Positions 11,451-18,715 of a DNA stretch of 64,000 bases are shown one piece after another. The stretch lies in NCBI GenBank assembly GCA_000004985.1, contig GG738862.1; one strand, 5' to 3'. The translations under genes and the position numbers were made by a program. Every line of letters begins with the position of its first letter. Within the stretch, counting starts at the first letter, position 1. The DNA is from Naegleria gruberi (Eukaryota). Below the pieces are notes generated by a model. The model worked only from the letters and a program-made list of their open reading frames with translations, did no database searches and was not told the DNA's origin.

Positions 11451-14009
11451 TTAAAGAGAAATCTTCCATTCAGCATTGAATAATGTCTTTTGTTGAGCTG
11501 GGAGAGACCAGGACCACAAAGTTCTTTGATTTCTTTGTTTCCAATGGCAGTCTACAATCCAAAACTTGCAATCTCTCCAAGCATAGTATGCTTCCAAATT
11601 GGCAGACATTGGTTGAGTTTGTAATTGAACATCAACTCCTACAGTACAGAGAGTACCATGGACATAACCTTGAGGAACTAAAGCTGCTTGGAATGAAGCA
11701 TCCAATTCAATACCACCCTTAATAATGAGCAAGTCGATATCAGCTTGACCATCAATAGTAATTTGAGCAGAAGGAATAACTTCAACCATAGCGCTCAATT
11801 GAGCATCACAAATTTGCCATCCCCATTCAGCATCCAAACCAAGAGTAGCACCAGCACTGAAAGTGATTGGAACAATTGAAACCCAAACAGTGTATTCATA
11901 GTTGAATCCATTGCTAGTATGATAAAGTTGATAAGTGTGCAAGTTACAATCAATAAGTTGAGTTGGTAAAGTTTGTTGATAAACAACCTTGTCGAAAACA
12001 CTCAAGAAGATGGTATTGTCTACAGTTTGTGCTCCTTGCTTACCATATGCAGCCTTGGCATCAAAAATACTGGCTTGTTTGGCACCTAAAACATCAACAT
12101 TGGCATAGGCTTCAATTCTTCCATCATAGTTAAAGTTTGGATGATTACAATCAAAGTTGGTTCCAACAAAGAAATCACCGTGCAAATCAACAGAGACAGT
12201 ATCACCACCAAGGTTATAATCTTTGGTAATTGAACGATTGTATGGGTATGGAGAGTCATCGAAAGTGAGCTTACTTGATGGAATGGAATACTTCTTGGCA
12301 AAGGCCTTCATAACCATTCTGAGAGCAGATCTTACTTGTTGATTCTTTTCAGTGGCCAACAATTTAGAAACGACTGGAAGAACATCTTGTGGCTTGAAAA
12401 TGGTTTCAGCATTGTAGATGGCACCGAGAATAGAGACAGCAATTGATGAATCAGATTCCTTTGTAAGAAGAGCAGAACGATCGAGCATTTCGAGCAAGGT
12501 GGAGGCAGCGTCCTTCTTGACTGAAGCTGGAGTAGTTGATCTAGAAACCAAAGAACCAAAGGCTAATAATGCAGCATCTCTGAGAACTGGATTAGAATCA
12601 TAATATTTACCAAACATGGAATAAATCTTACGAATGGATGCAGCAGTTGGTTGCTTCATACCAGTGTTAGCAGACAAGAGAGAGTGGAAGAGCAAATCAT
12701 TGGCGATCTTTGGTTCAATACCATCGAATGATGCTTCAATAAATTCAGAGAAGAATAAATCTTCAAAATTCTTGGCAGAAGTGAGTAAGAAAAAGACCTT
12801 ATCTCTCATTTGCTTATTGTTGGCTTGCTTAAGGTTGGTAATATACTTCATCAAGGTAGTCTTGGCACTGGCCAAAGTTTCAATAACCTTTGGAGCAGAG
12901 CTGTCAAAGAACTTGGCGAGCTTCTTCAAATCCTTGTGATGAGCAATTAATGGCTTTGGTGAGTCCAAAATGGTTGAGATCATTTGAATAGGATCTTCCT
13001 TGAGCATTGGCAATTCATAATTAATTGACTTCAATGAAGCAATGGTACTCTTGGCAACTTCGAACAATGAACCCTTCTTGAATGAGGCATTGTTGATTGG
13101 AGAAACCTTGTTGAAAGCAGTAATAACTTGTTGAGATTGCAAAGCAATATTCAAAGAACCAGCACTTCTCATATTCATATCAAAACCAGTACTATTGGTG
13201 AGTCCCAACTTGGCACCAAGTTGCATGGAAGCAATGTTGGTGATTTGAGAGGTAGTAGTAGAGGCAATATAACCATTTGGATGGACAGCAGTTTGAGCAG
13301 TAGCTTGAATGTCGACATTGTTGGCAGTAACTTGAGCATCACTGAATGATCTAAAGTTTTGTTGAGTGAATTGCTTGTTAATATTCAACATGGCAGCTGG
13401 AGCAGCTTGATAGGCACTAGTGTGGACACCAACACAATCTTGTTCCAAAATTGTGGCAGTACTTTGGGTGACATAGGTCTGGAAGGCACTAATAGCTGAC
13501 AATTTAACATTGACAAAATATGGAGAATCGCCATCTTGATAATAAACTTGAGTAATTTCACCTGTTGGAAGTTGAATAAAGTACATGTCATAACCAAGAG
13601 CAGAACTATCACTAGCACCAAAAGTCAAGGTTGTCTTGGCATTGGCAATCTTGGTATCCTTGTTAATCAAACTGACACGAGAAGCACGAGCGTGTTCACT
13701 AGTTTGACCAACACCAACTTGTGTATTGAACATGTTAGCAACAAAAACAAATGATCCATCCTTTTGAATTTCATTACATCTGTGAACATAGACAGAGTCG
13801 AGAGTAGAAGTGGTTCCATTAGTAAGAGAGTTACTCTTTTGAACATTTCCTCTGGCATCAACAGTACCATGAAGATTAAAAACAAATTCCTGACCGACCT
13901 GGTAGGATAATTGTGAAGGGAGTGCTGAAATGGCTTGAACCATCATGATGATCGCCATCAAGACAACAGCAACACCACCATACAAACCGACGCGATTAAA
14001 GTTCTTCAT
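11451..14009 (-). CDS. Secreted large-lipid-transfer-protein-like protein (vitellogenin-N / MTP-like architecture), 852 aa
   Basis: Signal peptide, then about 300 aa of beta-rich N-sheet, about 300 aa of alpha-helical HEAT-like region (LLTSAKNFEDLFFSEFIEASFDG…AALLAFGSLVS) and a beta-rich C-sheet. Length and order match microsomal triglyceride transfer protein and vitellogenin N-domain. Assigned from motif and architecture memory only. Confidence 0.5.
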   Translation of the reverse strand: MKNFNRVGLYGGVAVVLMAIIMMVQAISALPSQLSYQVGQEFVFNLHGTVDARGNVQKSNSLTNGTTSTLDSVYVHRCNEIQKDGSFVFVANMFNTQVGVGQTSEHARASRVSLINKDTKIANAKTTLTFGASDSSALGYDMYFIQLPTGEITQVYYQDGDSPYFVNVKLSAISAFQTYVTQSTATILEQDCVGVHTSAYQAAPAAMLNINKQFTQQNFRSFSDAQVTANNVDIQATAQTAVHPNGYIASTTTSQITNIASMQLGAKLGLTNSTGFDMNMRSAGSLNIALQSQQVITAFNKVSPINNASFKKGSLFEVAKSTIASLKSINYELPMLKEDPIQMISTILDSPKPLIAHHKDLKKLAKFFDSSAPKVIETLASAKTTLMKYITNLKQANNKQMRDKVFFLLTSAKNFEDLFFSEFIEASFDGIEPKIANDLLFHSLLSANTGMKQPTAASIRKIYSMFGKYYDSNPVLRDAALLAFGSLVSRSTTPASVKKDAASTLLEMLDRSALLTKESDSSIAVSILGAIYNAETIFKPQDVLPVVSKLLATEKNQQVRSALRMVMKAFAKKYSIPSSKLTFDDSPYPYNRSITKDYNLGGDTVSVDLHGDFFVGTNFDCNHPNFNYDGRIEAYANVDVLGAKQASIFDAKAAYGKQGAQTVDNTIFLSVFDKVVYQQTLPTQLIDCNLHTYQLYHTSNGFNYEYTVWVSIVPITFSAGATLGLDAEWGWQICDAQLSAMVEVIPSAQITIDGQADIDLLIIKGGIELDASFQAALVPQGYVHGTLCTVGVDVQLQTQPMSANLEAYYAWRDCKFWIVDCHWKQRNQRTLWSWSLPAQQKTLFNAEWKISL

Positions 14010-14674: not shown

Positions 14675-17600
14675 TTAAAAATCCATTTCATACAAATCAG
14701 TTAACATGTTCATGATAATTTCAAAGGATGGTCTTGCACTTGGTTCGGTGGCCCAACTCATTTTCATAATATTAACATAACCATCGACTGCGGAGAGGAG
14801 TTGATGAGCATTACGAGGATTCATTTCTCGTAGAAACTTTTCACACCATGTGGTCATTTCATTCCAATCAACGAATGGTATGATTGGTCGTTTTTCTTGA
14901 TTAGCTACAAAGAAGAGCAAGTTGAAGGCCTTGATTTTCTTTTGATCCAAACTCACATGATTGAAATAATTAATCTTTTCACATGTATCATTCCAATAAG
15001 GGGTTTCCTCAAAGAAGAGTTCCCACATTATTATTGCATATGCATAGACATCCTAAATTGAACGAATAATATTAATATTTTAGAATAGATTGCTAAAACT
15101 TACAATTTTCTTGGCATTCTCTTTGGAAAGTGCGGATGAGGTCTGTTCATTATCTTCTTCAAGAATTAATTCAGGACACCTTTACAAATATTGAAATAAT
15201 TAAATGGATATTCTAATATTATTACTTACATGTATAATAATGTTCCAATATTTGCAGTTAATGATGTTGTCAAGGTATGATTTGAGACTGTTCTAGATAA
15301 TCCAAAGTCACACACTTTTGGATTATCATTATAGTCTAGAATAATATTAGCAGGTTTTAAATCTCTGTGAATGAGATAGTTAGGTTGTAATCCATGCAAG
15401 TATTTCATCCCATTTGCAATACCAATCAGAATTTTTAGCTTTTCCTTCAAAGTCTTCTTGACAGTTCCTTTCTTCATATTCTTGATAAGTCTCTCCATAC
15501 TTCCATTCTGAGCCAACTCTACAACCATGTAGGATTGAGTTTCAGAAATACAAATTCCATAGAATGAAATAATATTCACATGTCTGAGTTGTATCAGAAC
15601 CATTACTTCCTTCTCGAACATGTCATTACTACCCTCCTTTCGAACAATGGTTTTCACAGCAACATCCATCATATTCCATTTGGCTTGATAGACAGATCCT
15701 GAGGCACCTTCTCCAATTTTCTTTTCAAATTTCAGTTCATTTGCTGGAATTATGTAATTGGCATTCTTTTCAATATCCACAGAATGAAGGGATCCATAAT
15801 CAGAGTACGAGACATCATAGGTAAGTAGTTTTTCTTCGATTTCCTTCTCTGATTTTTCTCGAACATAGACTTTCTTGATCTTTTTGTAAACTCTCCAAAT
15901 TGAAAAGGCAAGGAATGAACAAGTGCATGAGCCAATAACGATACCAATAATCATCACCAATATTGAGGCAACAACAATGACTGGTATGACCTGACTATAG
16001 GGAAAACCAAGTTGACACAGTCCATCCTTAATGATATAATCCACCTTGCAAGGAACCAAGTGAACACGTACAAATTTAGTTGTTGCAAATGGGAGTCTTA
16101 ATTTGAGAAAAAAATAATTATCTTTTTTGAGATCTATGGATTCTTTCTTGAGTGAAATGTGAAATCCAACAATATTCGAAAAATTGGTCTGGTTTACATG
16201 CACATCAAAGTTTGAGCTCGATAAAGTATCGTTGATTTCTATAATGGCACTTTCTAACAATACAGGTACATTATTATTTACACCATCAGTCATTTGAGAA
16301 AAGTAAGCAGATACTACTTGCCCCGGATAGACATAAATTGATTCATAAGTGTCATCTGATTTCAATTCCAATCTATCTAGTGAAAGATTGTATTGCCTTA
16401 TTGAGGTGGCAATATCATTTCCGTATTGATCTGCACTATTATATTGAACATCAGGCATATTTTCAATAAAAGCATACCCTTCAATGAATATTCCTCCTCC
16501 AATAAATGCAGAGTTCTCTTCCATCATAGGAGAGTATATTCCAATATTTTTTCCATTTGTGAAACAGGCACCACCTCTAAGGGCTGAATTGAGTAGAAAT
16601 GTTGATTTCGTCATAAAGCCATGCGTATTGATTAGTGATAGGGCTCCTCCACTTCCCTCAACGAAATGACCAGACTTGAAACGCTGTTCCTCCGCTGGTG
16701 ATAGAACAATTCTATTATTTACAAAACTAGTAAGAAGTAAACTAGCTGCCAAAGTAGTATTTCGAATATAGAGTGCACCACCTGCCAGTGTTGAATTATT
16801 TGAATGAAAAAGTGTCGATTCAATTCTAACTGCATAATTTCCATCCATTAATACGGCTCCTCCATTTCCATTTTTTGCTGTGTTATTGATAAATCGTGAT
16901 CCTAGAATGCATGAAGATGTAGAGACAGAGAGGAGTGAAATGCTACCTCCACTCTTGAATGAAGTATTGTTGAAAAATCTGGAGTTTTTCACAACAACTA
17001 CATCAGAAGAATCAATAAGTATAGCACCTGAATGTTTGGCCTTGTTTTGTTGAAAAAAGCAATCAACCACTTTGACCTCCTGACACAGATAGAGAGAAAC
17101 CACTGATTTTGCATTCATTGAATAATTGTCTATGAATGCAGAACGTACAAAATTGACTGTTCCCACTGAAATCCAATCTATCCATCCATACTCTCTCTTT
17201 CCAGAAAAATTACATTTGGTTATAAATATCCGAAAGACAAGGTTTGCCTTAATAGCTGAAAGTTCGGCTGGGTCGCCGGCATCTTCCTTTGGATTCTTTC
17301 TAATATGATTCCGTAACGGAACATATGTAAAATTGCAATGATTAATATCTGCCTGAACGACAGATCGCAATGTCAACTGTGAATTCTTTGAAAATTCGAA
17401 TTGGCAATACGAAAACTCGACACTTTCTGCATGTGCAACTAATATAGTAGGACCAGCACTATCTACATCCAATTTGGCTGAAAATTTGGTCCTATTAAAC
17501 AATACCCTTTCAGCTCCCATTATCATTATATCTGAATCAGTTACACAATTTTCCATTTCAATATTTCCATAATTCATCTCAATAACCGATCCAATAATTC

Positions 17601-18405
17601 TCGAATTAGAAAGTCTAAATCTATAGTCCATACTACTAAAAATTTTCACCTGATAAAAATCAACATTTGAAGCTTCCATACATGGCGTAACCATATTAAT
17701 TGCCTTCATATTATGAAACCGTATATAGGAAATAACACTTGATGAATCAGTTATAAAACCATCTGTATCATAAAAGCATCTAATGAGTCGAGGTGAAGCA
17801 TTGTCAAAACTCTTCACTAACACATTAACTCGAATAAATTGCCGAATCGATCCATCAATGGGTGGAACTCGAGCAAGACATGCCCTTCCACCACTTCTAT
17901 CCAAATCAGCTAGATCAGTCATTAGAATTATATTAAACAAAATTTCAAAGCATTCACCCTTTCTTCCTTCCCTAGTAGAAATTGAGGATAATGAAACCAT
18001 GGCAGCTGACATGTCCTTACATGCATTCTCAGTGGTTGATCCACAATCAAGAATTGATGTATAATTTTCCAAATTTACATGAATATCAAAACTAATTGGA
18101 ATATAGGAAAAACATGTTTTCACTTTTGTAAAATTTCCATTCGTTCGGTTTAATCCCAAATTAGAATTTGTTTCGTCTAATATTCTATTTAATCTTGTTG
18201 GTTTATAATTTTTAGAGTACCTAGGGGTGTTGTATTTTAGAGAAGATGATCCTTTCAATTTTTTACTTTCTCTAATGGTTTCTATTAGTTTCGTTTTATG
18301 TACAAAATTCGATTTTTCAAATTGTCGTATTTCCAACTCCGAAAAAGTAGAAAAACAATCATCATTTGCAATATTTAAACTACTAAATATTAATAAAAGT
18401 AACAT
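14675..18405 (-). CDS. Receptor-type tyrosine-kinase-like (TKL) Ser/Thr kinase: signal peptide, ectodomain of Pmp-type (GGA[ILV]/FxxN) right-handed beta-helix repeats, one TM, cytoplasmic kinase. Three exons, introns about 15180..15229 (50 nt) and 15053..15103 (51 nt).
   Basis: Kinase motifs GEGASGSVY, VAVK, HRDLKPANIIL, DFGLS, then YM|CPE and DVYAYAIIMWEL recovered only after splicing a 76-nt micro-exon (15104..15179). Ectodomain has about a dozen repeats with FxxN…GGA(I/L/V). TM is VIPVIVVASILVMIIGIVIG. The likely start is the internal Met giving MLLLLIFSSLNIAND. Confidence 0.8.
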
Positions 18406-18715
18406 TATTATCGTTATCCTAAAAAATTGTTCCGAGACTAGTTTCGTCCTTGATGTTCTTTCGTATAAGAAATAGAAAGTTGTGTTTCGGTGATGGTAAC
18501 TTTCTATTTCTTCTCGTCCAAAGAACCTCCAATTCATAGTTTCCTTTCCATAGAGTTGATGTTATTTTTTTAATGTCTGTTGTCGAAAGTGTCTGACGTC
18601 TGTTTTAGGATTTCTTCCAATAAGAAATGCTCACACTCAAAAACAAGAAACAAAGATACAAAGGAAAAAAGATATTTTCCAAAGAATCTTGAACAATCAT
18701 TTAACAAAAAAGGTG

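What the first reader, a model, noticed from the sequence alone, without database searches (positions are those of the whole stretch)
11451..14009. MTP/vitellogenin-like large lipid transfer protein, informative about which lineage this is
The 852-aa secreted protein has the N-sheet, helical and C-sheet order and the size of microsomal triglyceride transfer protein. LLTP-superfamily proteins are classically regarded as metazoan. If the organism is a protist, this would be an unusual early-branching LLTP. If it is a small AT-rich metazoan (a bdelloid-like genome with 40-60-nt introns is one possibility), it becomes a taxonomic anchor.
Basis: inference. Interest (0 to 1): 0.5.

Follow-up and report, generated by a model that had tools for sequence, protein, structure and literature searches.

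The report
Naegleria MTP-like large lipid transfer protein
This gene of the free-living amoeboflagellate Naegleria gruberi encodes a secreted-type protein with the same three-part lipid-binding fold as animal MTP, vitellogenin and apoB, and it belongs to a little-studied branch of that family also found in other protists and some bacteria.

Summary

The organism is settled. The protein is 100% identical to XP_002678446.1, "lipid transport family protein [Naegleria gruberi]". The host is therefore a heterolobosean protist, not a small metazoan. The gene was already annotated, so its identity is not new.

An exhaustive profile search found 290 cluster representatives. Those with names come from Heterolobosea, Anaeramoeba, two unclassified eukaryotes (TZLM1-RC, TZLM3-RCL), Amoebozoa, a sponge, a brachiopod and Herpetosiphon, where the gene sits on the bacterial chromosome.

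It is not demonstrably an MTP orthologue:
- it has no MTP_lip_bd profile hit;
- the barrel disulfide shared by MTP, lipovitellin and apoB is absent;
- the helical domain is shorter;
- the C-terminal domain is the most conserved part, with six Cys invariant in protists, and has no Pfam model.

The most likely function is a small-cavity lipid binding or shuttle protein of the secretory or extracellular route. This is inferred, not shown.

The parts
11451..14009 (-). Complete single-exon CDS (852 codons plus stop) of the Naegleria gruberi LLTP-superfamily protein XP_002678446.1 / D2VC80_NAEGR
   Evidence: ORF list. 100% identity and 100% coverage to the 852-aa deposited protein.
13923..14009 (-). 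aa 1-29: predicted signal peptide (hydrophobic core VAVVLMAIIMMV, then AISA|LPSQ)
   Evidence: It is the only Kyte-Doolittle >1.6 segment in the protein. Most protist and bacterial homologues examined also have hydrophobic N-termini. The cleavage site is inferred; no SignalP was run.
13071..13907 (-). aa 35-313: N-sheet beta-barrel with a central helix carrying the LLTP signature NVKLSAISAFQT (aa 167-178)
   Evidence: AlphaFold secondary structure. Pfam Vitellogenin_N starts at aa 145. hhalign pairs the motif with MTP NIKRGLASLFQT. K169, Q177 and T178 are invariant in the six closest relatives, and K169 is conserved in at least 85% of 45 sequences.
12270..13070 (-). aa 314-580: alpha-helical (HEAT-like two-layer) domain of about 14 helices, including the RDAALLAFGSLVSR motif
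   Evidence: AlphaFold helices 315-573, pLDDT mostly 80-94. Aligned to lipovitellin 386-508 and to MTP 350-480. It is the least conserved domain of the family.
11454..12257 (-). aa 585-852: all-beta C-terminal domain, the presumed A/C-sheet lipid-binding sandwich. It has six Cys invariant in the protist branch (621, 688, 734, 788, 814, 821), nine Trp and the conserved junction motif SPYPYN

Best explanation
[quoted passage not shown] A signal peptide sends it into the ER or secretory route. The mature protein folds into the canonical LLTP lipid-binding module. That module has an N-sheet half-barrel around a central helix, a two-layer helical clamp, and a C-terminal pair of beta-sheets stapled by up to three disulfides that enclose a hydrophobic pocket. 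By analogy with MTP, whose A/C-sheet sandwich holds about one lipid, it most likely binds one or a few lipid molecules and shuttles them between membranes or particles in the secretory or endo-lysosomal lumen, or outside the cell. One plausible use is harvesting lipid from ingested bacteria or redistributing membrane lipid. Shown: the ORF, its identity, homology of the N and helical domains to the LLTP N-terminal region, the whole-chain predicted fold match, and the taxonomic spread. Inferred: signal-peptide cleavage, disulfides, the hydrophobic cavity, lipid binding, and the physiological role.
For: - **Pfam:** Vitellogenin_N scores above the gathering threshold. 11 of 25 family members hit it, the best at 4e-24.
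- **Profile against PDB sequences:** lipovitellin 1.5e-14, MTP 1.5e-7 and 3.2e-7.
- **hhalign against MTP:** probability 94.8% over 519 columns, with the signature motif aligned.
- **Model quality:** AlphaFold pLDDT 81, pTM 0.74.
- **Foldseek:** the top 10 hits are all LLTPs. MTP 6I7S scores 2.9e-27 with TM 0.56/0.56 over a full-length alignment, and the next non-LLTP hit is E about 1e-2.
- **Targeting:** N-terminal hydrophobic signal-like segments occur in most protist and bacterial homologues examined. Sequons at N64, N272, N307 and N591 were found in the sequence.
- **Conservation:** the C-terminal domain is the most conserved part. The MTP structure paper reports the same for the MTP lipid-binding domain (PMC6717300).
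Against: - No lipid-binding or expression data exist for this protein or any close homologue. Ten literature searches found nothing.
- The C-terminal domain has no significant sequence-profile link to the MTP lipid-binding domain (hhalign probability 20%, E=1e-3; no PF19444 hit). Its assignment as an A/C-sheet sandwich rests on a predicted structure whose coordinates I could not inspect for a cavity.
- No apoB- or vitellogenin-like acceptor was found in Naegleria, so the MTP-type role of loading another LLTP is unsupported.
- There is no ER-retention motif (C-terminus KISL).
Confidence: 0.7

Rival explanations
1. It is a true orthologue of animal MTP. It would live in the ER, be held there as a heterodimer with protein disulfide isomerase, and load lipid onto a secreted acceptor lipoprotein.
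For: Foldseek ranks MTP 6I7S first. Size and three-domain order match MTP. A conserved aromatic loop (SPYPYN, aa 587-592) sits at the helical/C-sheet junction. MTP inserts Asn604-Tyr605 into the PDI b' pocket at the same junction (PMC6717300).
Against: - The Pfam MTP_lip_bd profile PF19444 is present in every canonical MTP retrieved but is not hit here even at E<=10.
- The barrel disulfide equivalent to MTP C174-C194 is absent, and the helical domain is about three helices shorter.
- Bacterial homologues of the same architecture exist.
- No acceptor LLTP was found in N. gruberi.
Confidence: 0.1
2. It is a secreted pattern-recognition or defence protein. Like the LLTP module of vitellogenin in invertebrate immunity, it would bind microbial surface lipids such as LPS or lipoteichoic acid, for prey recognition or antimicrobial action rather than for lipid trafficking.
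For: The fold match to vitellogenins is as strong as to MTP. The protein has a signal-like N-terminus and no retention signal. Known hosts include bacterivorous amoebae and, from general knowledge, the predatory bacterium Herpetosiphon. LLTPs are reported to have acquired immune functions (PMC12214520).
Against: There is no direct evidence. The vWD and other accessory domains found in vitellogenins are absent. This reading still works by lipid binding in the same module, so it is a variant of the main explanation rather than a distinct mechanism.
Confidence: 0.12
3. It is a storage (yolk-like) lipoprotein laid down for encystment or starvation. It would carry a lipid load as cargo rather than shuttling single lipids.
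Against: At 852 aa it lacks the extra sheets that enlarge the vitellogenin funnel cavity, and its size matches the small-cavity MTP form. There is no phosvitin-like or polyserine region (composition). There is no evidence of high abundance.
Confidence: 0.05

Closest known systems
Microsomal triglyceride transfer protein large subunit (human MTTP; PDB 6I7S, 8EOJ)
   Different: About 12% identity. There is no PF19444 MTP_lip_bd match. The MTP C174-C194 barrel disulfide is absent. The helical domain is shorter (about 14 against 17 helices). The C-domain cysteine pattern differs: six invariant Cys against the single C827-C878 pair of MTP. A PDI partnership is unknown, and no acceptor lipoprotein is known in the organism.
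Lipovitellin / vitellogenin (lamprey 1LSH; honey bee 9ENR)
   Different: Vitellogenins are 1,300-1,800 aa. They carry additional beta-sheets, polyserine and vWD domains and a large funnel cavity for many lipids, all absent here.
Bacterial 'lipid transporter' / Vitellogenin-domain proteins of Herpetosiphon and other Chloroflexota (WP_012190932.1, A9B2X2)
   Same: The same three-domain N-H-C architecture and length (865 aa). The full-length profile match is E about 2.5e-18. The C688/C734 cysteine pair is shared in 9/9 bacterial-like sequences. They have an N-terminal signal-like segment.
   Different: About 18% identity. They lack four of the six C-domain cysteines. They have stronger HEAT and Vitellogenin_N scores. 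They form a separate cluster in a crude NJ tree. They are likewise uncharacterised.

Membership tests
LLTP superfamily (large lipid transfer proteins: MTP, vitellogenin, apoB, apolipophorin) | N-terminal LLT module (beta-barrel plus helical domain) recognised by the Vitellogenin_N / LPD_N profile | tested here: met
   PF01347 gives E=1e-8 and 34.7 bits against a cut-off of 24, over aa 145-567. The family profile hits 1LSH at E=1.5e-14. hhalign against MTP gives probability 94.8%.
LLTP superfamily (large lipid transfer proteins: MTP, vitellogenin, apoB, apolipophorin) | Three-dimensional lipid-binding module: N-sheet barrel, helical clamp, and A/C beta-sheets forming the cavity | tested here: met
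LLTP superfamily (large lipid transfer proteins: MTP, vitellogenin, apoB, apolipophorin) | Barrel disulfide conserved in MTP (C174-C194), lipovitellin (C156-C182) and apoB (C186-C212) | tested here: not met
   hhalign places invariant H196 opposite MTP C174 and no Cys opposite C194. Of the N-domain cysteines, only C78 is conserved, and C192 is present in 3 of 41 homologues. The feature is conserved in the animal members (PMC6717300) but is not part of the Pfam definition.
LLTP superfamily (large lipid transfer proteins: MTP, vitellogenin, apoB, apolipophorin) | Binds or transfers lipid | not testable with these tools
   This needs a biochemical assay. No published data were found.
MTP family proper (MTTP orthologues) | C-terminal MTP lipid-binding domain profile (Pfam PF19444 MTP_lip_bd) | tested here: not met
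   All 120 listed canonical MTPs carry PF19444. The Naegleria protein and its isolated C-domain have no hit at E<=10 and E<=1. C-domain hhalign against the MTP C-domain gives probability 20%.
MTP family proper (MTTP orthologues) | Obligate heterodimer with protein disulfide isomerase, giving ER retention through the KDEL of PDI | not testable with these tools
   The only lead is a conserved aromatic junction loop (SPYPYN) at the position of the MTP N604/Y605 loop. No multimer prediction was available.
MTP family proper (MTTP orthologues) | Arg540 invariant in every MTP examined (helical domain) | tested here: inconclusive
   The reliable part of the hhalign alignment ends near MTP residue 510 (Naegleria about 573). 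The Naegleria helical domain is shorter, so no credible counterpart can be assigned.
Vitellogenin / apoB-type cargo LLTPs | Large size with additional beta-sheets (DUF1943/DUF1081) and vWD or amphipathic extensions that build a large lipid cavity | tested here: not met
   The protein is 852 aa in total. Only Vitellogenin_N was found, with no DUF1943, DUF1081 or VWD hits. The secondary structure ends with a single C-terminal beta domain.

The most novel reading that the evidence does not exclude
The LLTP lipid-binding module did not arise with animal multicellularity. On this reading the Naegleria protein represents an old, compact N-H-C LLTP lineage. It is present in at least three eukaryotic supergroup-level lineages (Discoba, Metamonada-related anaerobes, Amoebozoa), in some early-branching or marine animals, and in Chloroflexota bacteria. 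It would have served as a free-standing secreted lipid shuttle in phagotrophs and predators. Animal MTP, vitellogenin and apoB would be later elaborations of that form, or the module moved between bacteria and eukaryotes by horizontal transfer. I found no open-access paper describing this.
Probability: 0.55. Interest if true: 0.6.

Novelty: new member of a known kind. Interest (0 to 1): 0.45.

Why it matters
Recent literature still describes LLTPs as animal proteins whose emergence is linked to multicellularity (PMC12214520). [quoted passage not shown] A unicellular, culturable and genetically tractable amoeboflagellate has a single compact LLTP, and related proteins occur in other protists and in a cultivable bacterium, Herpetosiphon. 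Together these offer a simple system for asking what the ancestral LLTP module did before lipoproteins existed. They also allow a test of whether the PDI partnership and phospholipid transfer are ancestral. For the scan itself, the gene fixes the window as Naegleria gruberi. The caveat is that the gene has been annotated as a lipid transport family protein for years and the domain distribution is visible in public databases. This is an under-described fact rather than a discovery.

Tried and rejected
- **First AlphaFold run.** The 6-sequence alignment gave an unusable model (pLDDT 50). It was replaced by a 25-sequence alignment built from the exhaustive search.
- **The search for homologous proteins with the 25-sequence alignment.** It returned only the same six proteins, so one capped search was wasted.
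- **The look-up of encoding contigs for the Naegleria protein.** It found no record.
- **afdb50 fold search.** The library was not installed, so taxonomic spread was obtained from cluster look-ups instead.
- **GTDB genome scan with a bacterial alignment.** Bacterial authenticity was shown through the Herpetosiphon aurantiacus chromosome context instead.
- **Linking the C-terminal domain to MTP_lip_bd by sequence.** Pfam at E<=1 and local hhalign (probability 20%) were both non-significant.
- **NCBIfam.** It gave only noise.
- **Ten literature searches for non-metazoan LLTPs or for this accession.** None found anything relevant.
- **Bdelloid or small-metazoan origin.** Rejected: the protein is 100% identical to a Naegleria gruberi protein.
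- **Contamination as the source of the bacterial homologues.** Rejected: the gene sits in a 6.35-Mb complete chromosome among ordinary bacterial genes.
- **HEAT/ARM repeat protein as an alternative identity.** Rejected: the repeat hits cover only the helical domain, and whole-chain fold hits are exclusively LLTPs.

Full report
**1. The observation**

The window carries an ATG-initiated ORF of 852 codons plus stop at 11451..14009 on the minus strand. It is by far the longest ORF in that interval. The whole window is AT-rich (29-40% GC in 2-kb windows), and the gene region is the richest at 39.5%.

The protein has one strongly hydrophobic segment, at the N-terminus (about aa 4-34), followed by AISA|LPSQ. 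It has no other transmembrane-like stretch, no KDEL/HDEL-type C-terminus (it ends KISL), four N-x-S/T sequons and eight cysteines. No second copy exists in the window.

**2. Which organism it is**

The ORF product is 100% identical over 100% of its length to a deposited 852-aa protein. That protein is XP_002678446.1 / EFC45702.1 / UniProt D2VC80_NAEGR, named [quoted passage not shown]. The next relatives are:
- N. fowleri and N. lovaniensis (64% identity; UniProt name "Vitellogenin domain-containing protein");
- Willaertia magna (48%).

The window is therefore Naegleria gruberi, a heterolobosean amoeboflagellate.

Neighbouring ORFs are ordinary eukaryotic genes and give no functional context. 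They include an M24 aminopeptidase P, a split protein kinase, a DUF4116 repeat protein and an NHL-repeat protein.

**3. Is it an LLTP? Sequence evidence**

- **Pfam.** Vitellogenin_N (PF01347) matches aa 145-567 at E=1e-8, 34.7 bits, above the curated cut-off of 24.
- **Single sequence against the PDB.** It finds lamprey lipovitellin weakly (E=0.013). A 6-sequence profile improves this to 1.3e-3.
- **Deeper profile.** A 25-sequence profile built from the exhaustive search reaches 1LSH at E=1.5e-14, spanning barrel and helices. It reaches human MTP (8EOJ, 6I7S) at 1.5e-7 and 3.2e-7. Designed HEAT/ARM proteins also hit the helical part, so the MTP value alone is not decisive.
- **Profile against profile.** I then collected real MTPs with it and ran hhalign locally, using 43 family sequences and 34 mammalian MTPs. 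The result was probability 94.8%, E=5e-8, with 519 aligned columns (Naegleria 13-611 against MTP 1-545).
- **Signature motif.** The barrel-helix motif aligns as Naegleria NVKLSAISAFQT against MTP NIKRGLASLFQT. Bacterial relatives read NLKRGIISALQTQL.

Homology of the N-sheet and helical domains to the LLTP N-terminal region is therefore well supported.

**4. Is it an LLTP? Fold evidence**

The first AlphaFold run on six sequences was poor (pLDDT 50). With 25 diverse homologues the model reached pLDDT 81.1 and pTM 0.74. Its layout is:
- beta strands at 40-313 around a helix at 163-174;
- about 14 helices at 315-573;
- long antiparallel strands at 590-849.

| Search | Hit | Score |
|---|---|---|
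| Foldseek vs PDB | MTP 6I7S_G | E=2.9e-27, TM 0.56/0.56, 958 alignment columns |
| | lipovitellin 1LSH | E=2.2e-25 |
| | honey-bee vitellogenin | E about 1e-21 |
| | MTP 8EOJ | E=6e-19 |
| | apoB-100 structures | E=8e-17 to 5e-5 |
| | first non-LLTP hit | E about 1e-2 |

The N and helical domains contribute at most about 545 residues. The 614-634 aligned residues therefore imply that part of the C-terminal beta domain superposes too; this step is inference.

The two programs disagree on whether MTP or vitellogenin is nearest. The justified statement is "LLTP module of MTP-like size", not "MTP orthologue".

**5. What separates it from MTP**

- **No MTP_lip_bd match.** Every canonical MTP retrieved carries PF19444. 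The Naegleria protein has no hit even at E<=10, and its isolated C-domain has none at E<=1. hhalign of the C-domain alone against the MTP C-domain is not significant (probability 20%).
- **No barrel disulfide.** The disulfide shared by MTP, lipovitellin and apoB (PMC6717300) is absent. Invariant H196 sits opposite MTP C174.
- **Shorter helical domain.** It is about three helices shorter, so the invariant MTP R540 has no assignable counterpart.
- **A distinct C-domain.** It is the most conserved part of the family. Identity to the Naegleria protein across the N, helical and C domains is 47/31/60% in the heterolobosean group and 29/16/40% in other protists. It carries six cysteines invariant in 29 of 29 protist sequences. 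One pair (C688, C734) is also present in all nine bacterial-like sequences.
- **A possible PDI contact.** A conserved aromatic loop (SPYPYN) lies at the helical/C-sheet junction. MTP's N604/Y605 loop plugs into PDI at that position. This is a lead for a PDI interaction, not evidence.

**6. The family**

An exhaustive HMM search of 1.84 billion cluster representatives found 290 proteins at E<=1e-3, with 189 at <=1e-10 and 107 at <=1e-30.

Domain-wise HMMs showed the full N-H-C architecture in 80 of the 205 sequences held at that point: the six first hits, the 150 listed representatives, and their cluster members. Most of the rest are fragments or have a divergent helical part.

Named members:

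| Group | Members |
|---|---|
| Heterolobosea | Naegleria (3 species), Willaertia, Pharyngomonas, and a longer form in Percolomonas |
| Anaeramoeba | A. flamelloides (several copies) |
| Unclassified eukaryotes | "Eukaryota sp." TZLM1-RC and TZLM3-RCL |
| Amoebozoa | Pelomyxa, Protostelium, Planoprotostelium |
| Metazoa | the sponge Ephydatia and the brachiopod Lingula (both unnamed proteins) |
| Bacteria | Herpetosiphon aurantiacus, H. gulosus and Chloroflexota MAGs ("lipid transporter") |

The Herpetosiphon gene lies in the complete 6.35-Mb chromosome CP000875.1 among ordinary bacterial genes, so it is not contamination. The bacterial proteins match Vitellogenin_N more strongly than the Naegleria one does (1e-20 to 4e-24).

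A crude neighbour-joining tree groups the protist sequences roughly by lineage and apart from a bacterial cluster. It has no MTP or vitellogenin outgroup and no support values, so it does not decide between vertical descent and transfer.

**7. Mechanism**

The best-supported reading is a signal-peptide-directed soluble protein. Its C-terminal two-sheet domain is clamped by the helical domain and docked on the N-barrel, and forms a small hydrophobic lipid site as in MTP (about one lipid; PMC6717300). It would work as a lipid-binding or lipid-shuttling protein in the secretory or endo-lysosomal lumen, or outside the cell.

MTP-type loading of an acceptor lipoprotein is unlikely, because no apoB- or vitellogenin-like partner turned up in Naegleria. 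Invertebrate MTP transfers phospholipid only, and that is thought to be the ancestral activity (PMC3337244). Phospholipid is therefore the first substrate to test.

Many of the identified hosts are phagotrophs or predators. This suggests lipid scavenging from prey or recognition of prey lipids, which is speculation on my part. Storage and immune-like roles are listed as rivals.

**8. Novelty and verdict**

The gene's identity as a lipid-transport-family protein is already in GenBank and UniProt. The non-animal distribution of the domain is visible in public databases.

Ten full-text searches found no paper describing non-metazoan LLTPs or this protein. A 2025 structural paper still links LLTP emergence to multicellularity.

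I file it as a new, uncharacterised member of a known kind. It belongs to a distinct protist and bacterial branch whose C-terminal domain has no profile model. Interest is moderate (0.45). The finding is correct, useful for fixing the taxon, and a reasonable entry point for studying the ancestral LLTP function. It is neither mechanistically strange nor previously unseen.

Noticed in passing
window 22187-24835 (-): An 882-aa ORF made almost entirely of DUF4116 repeats: 16 matched stretches, E=3.6e-200. It is a large repeat protein of unknown function.
   Followed up: no
window 26921-30106 (+): A 1061-aa ORF with multiple NHL / teneurin-NHL beta-propeller repeats, E about 1e-84.
   Followed up: no
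window 15226-18537 (-) and 14675-15028 (-): A 1103-aa ORF ends in the N-terminal half of a protein kinase domain (profile positions 3-164 of 263). The downstream 117-aa ORF reads like the kinase C-lobe, although Pfam gave no hit for it. This looks like one gene split by a short intron between about 15029 and 15225.
   Followed up: partly
Unusually, it continues into a hydrophobic stretch and a His-rich tail at its C-terminus.
   Followed up: partly
L001 10062-11219 (Herpetosiphon aurantiacus CP000875.1): An IS605 OrfB / Cas12f-like TnpB gene lies about 1.5 kb downstream of the bacterial LLTP homologue. I did not examine whether the LLTP gene sits in a mobile region.
   Followed up: no
P0142 / P0192 (Percolomonas cosmopolitus and a JGI metagenome contig): These are a longer (1116-1132 aa) heterolobosean LLTP form. 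It has the N and C domains but a divergent middle, and clusters away from the Naegleria-type proteins in the crude tree. It may be a second LLTP paralogue lineage in Heterolobosea.
   Followed up: partly
P0148 / P0194 (Lingula anatina), P0153 / P0195-P0199 (Ephydatia muelleri): These animals carry several unnamed N-H-C proteins of 920-954 aa that match the protist/bacterial family profile (E about 1e-17 to 1e-18). P0148, the one scanned, lacks the MTP_lip_bd Pfam domain. They may be an unrecognised animal LLTP subfamily distinct from MTP.
   Followed up: partly
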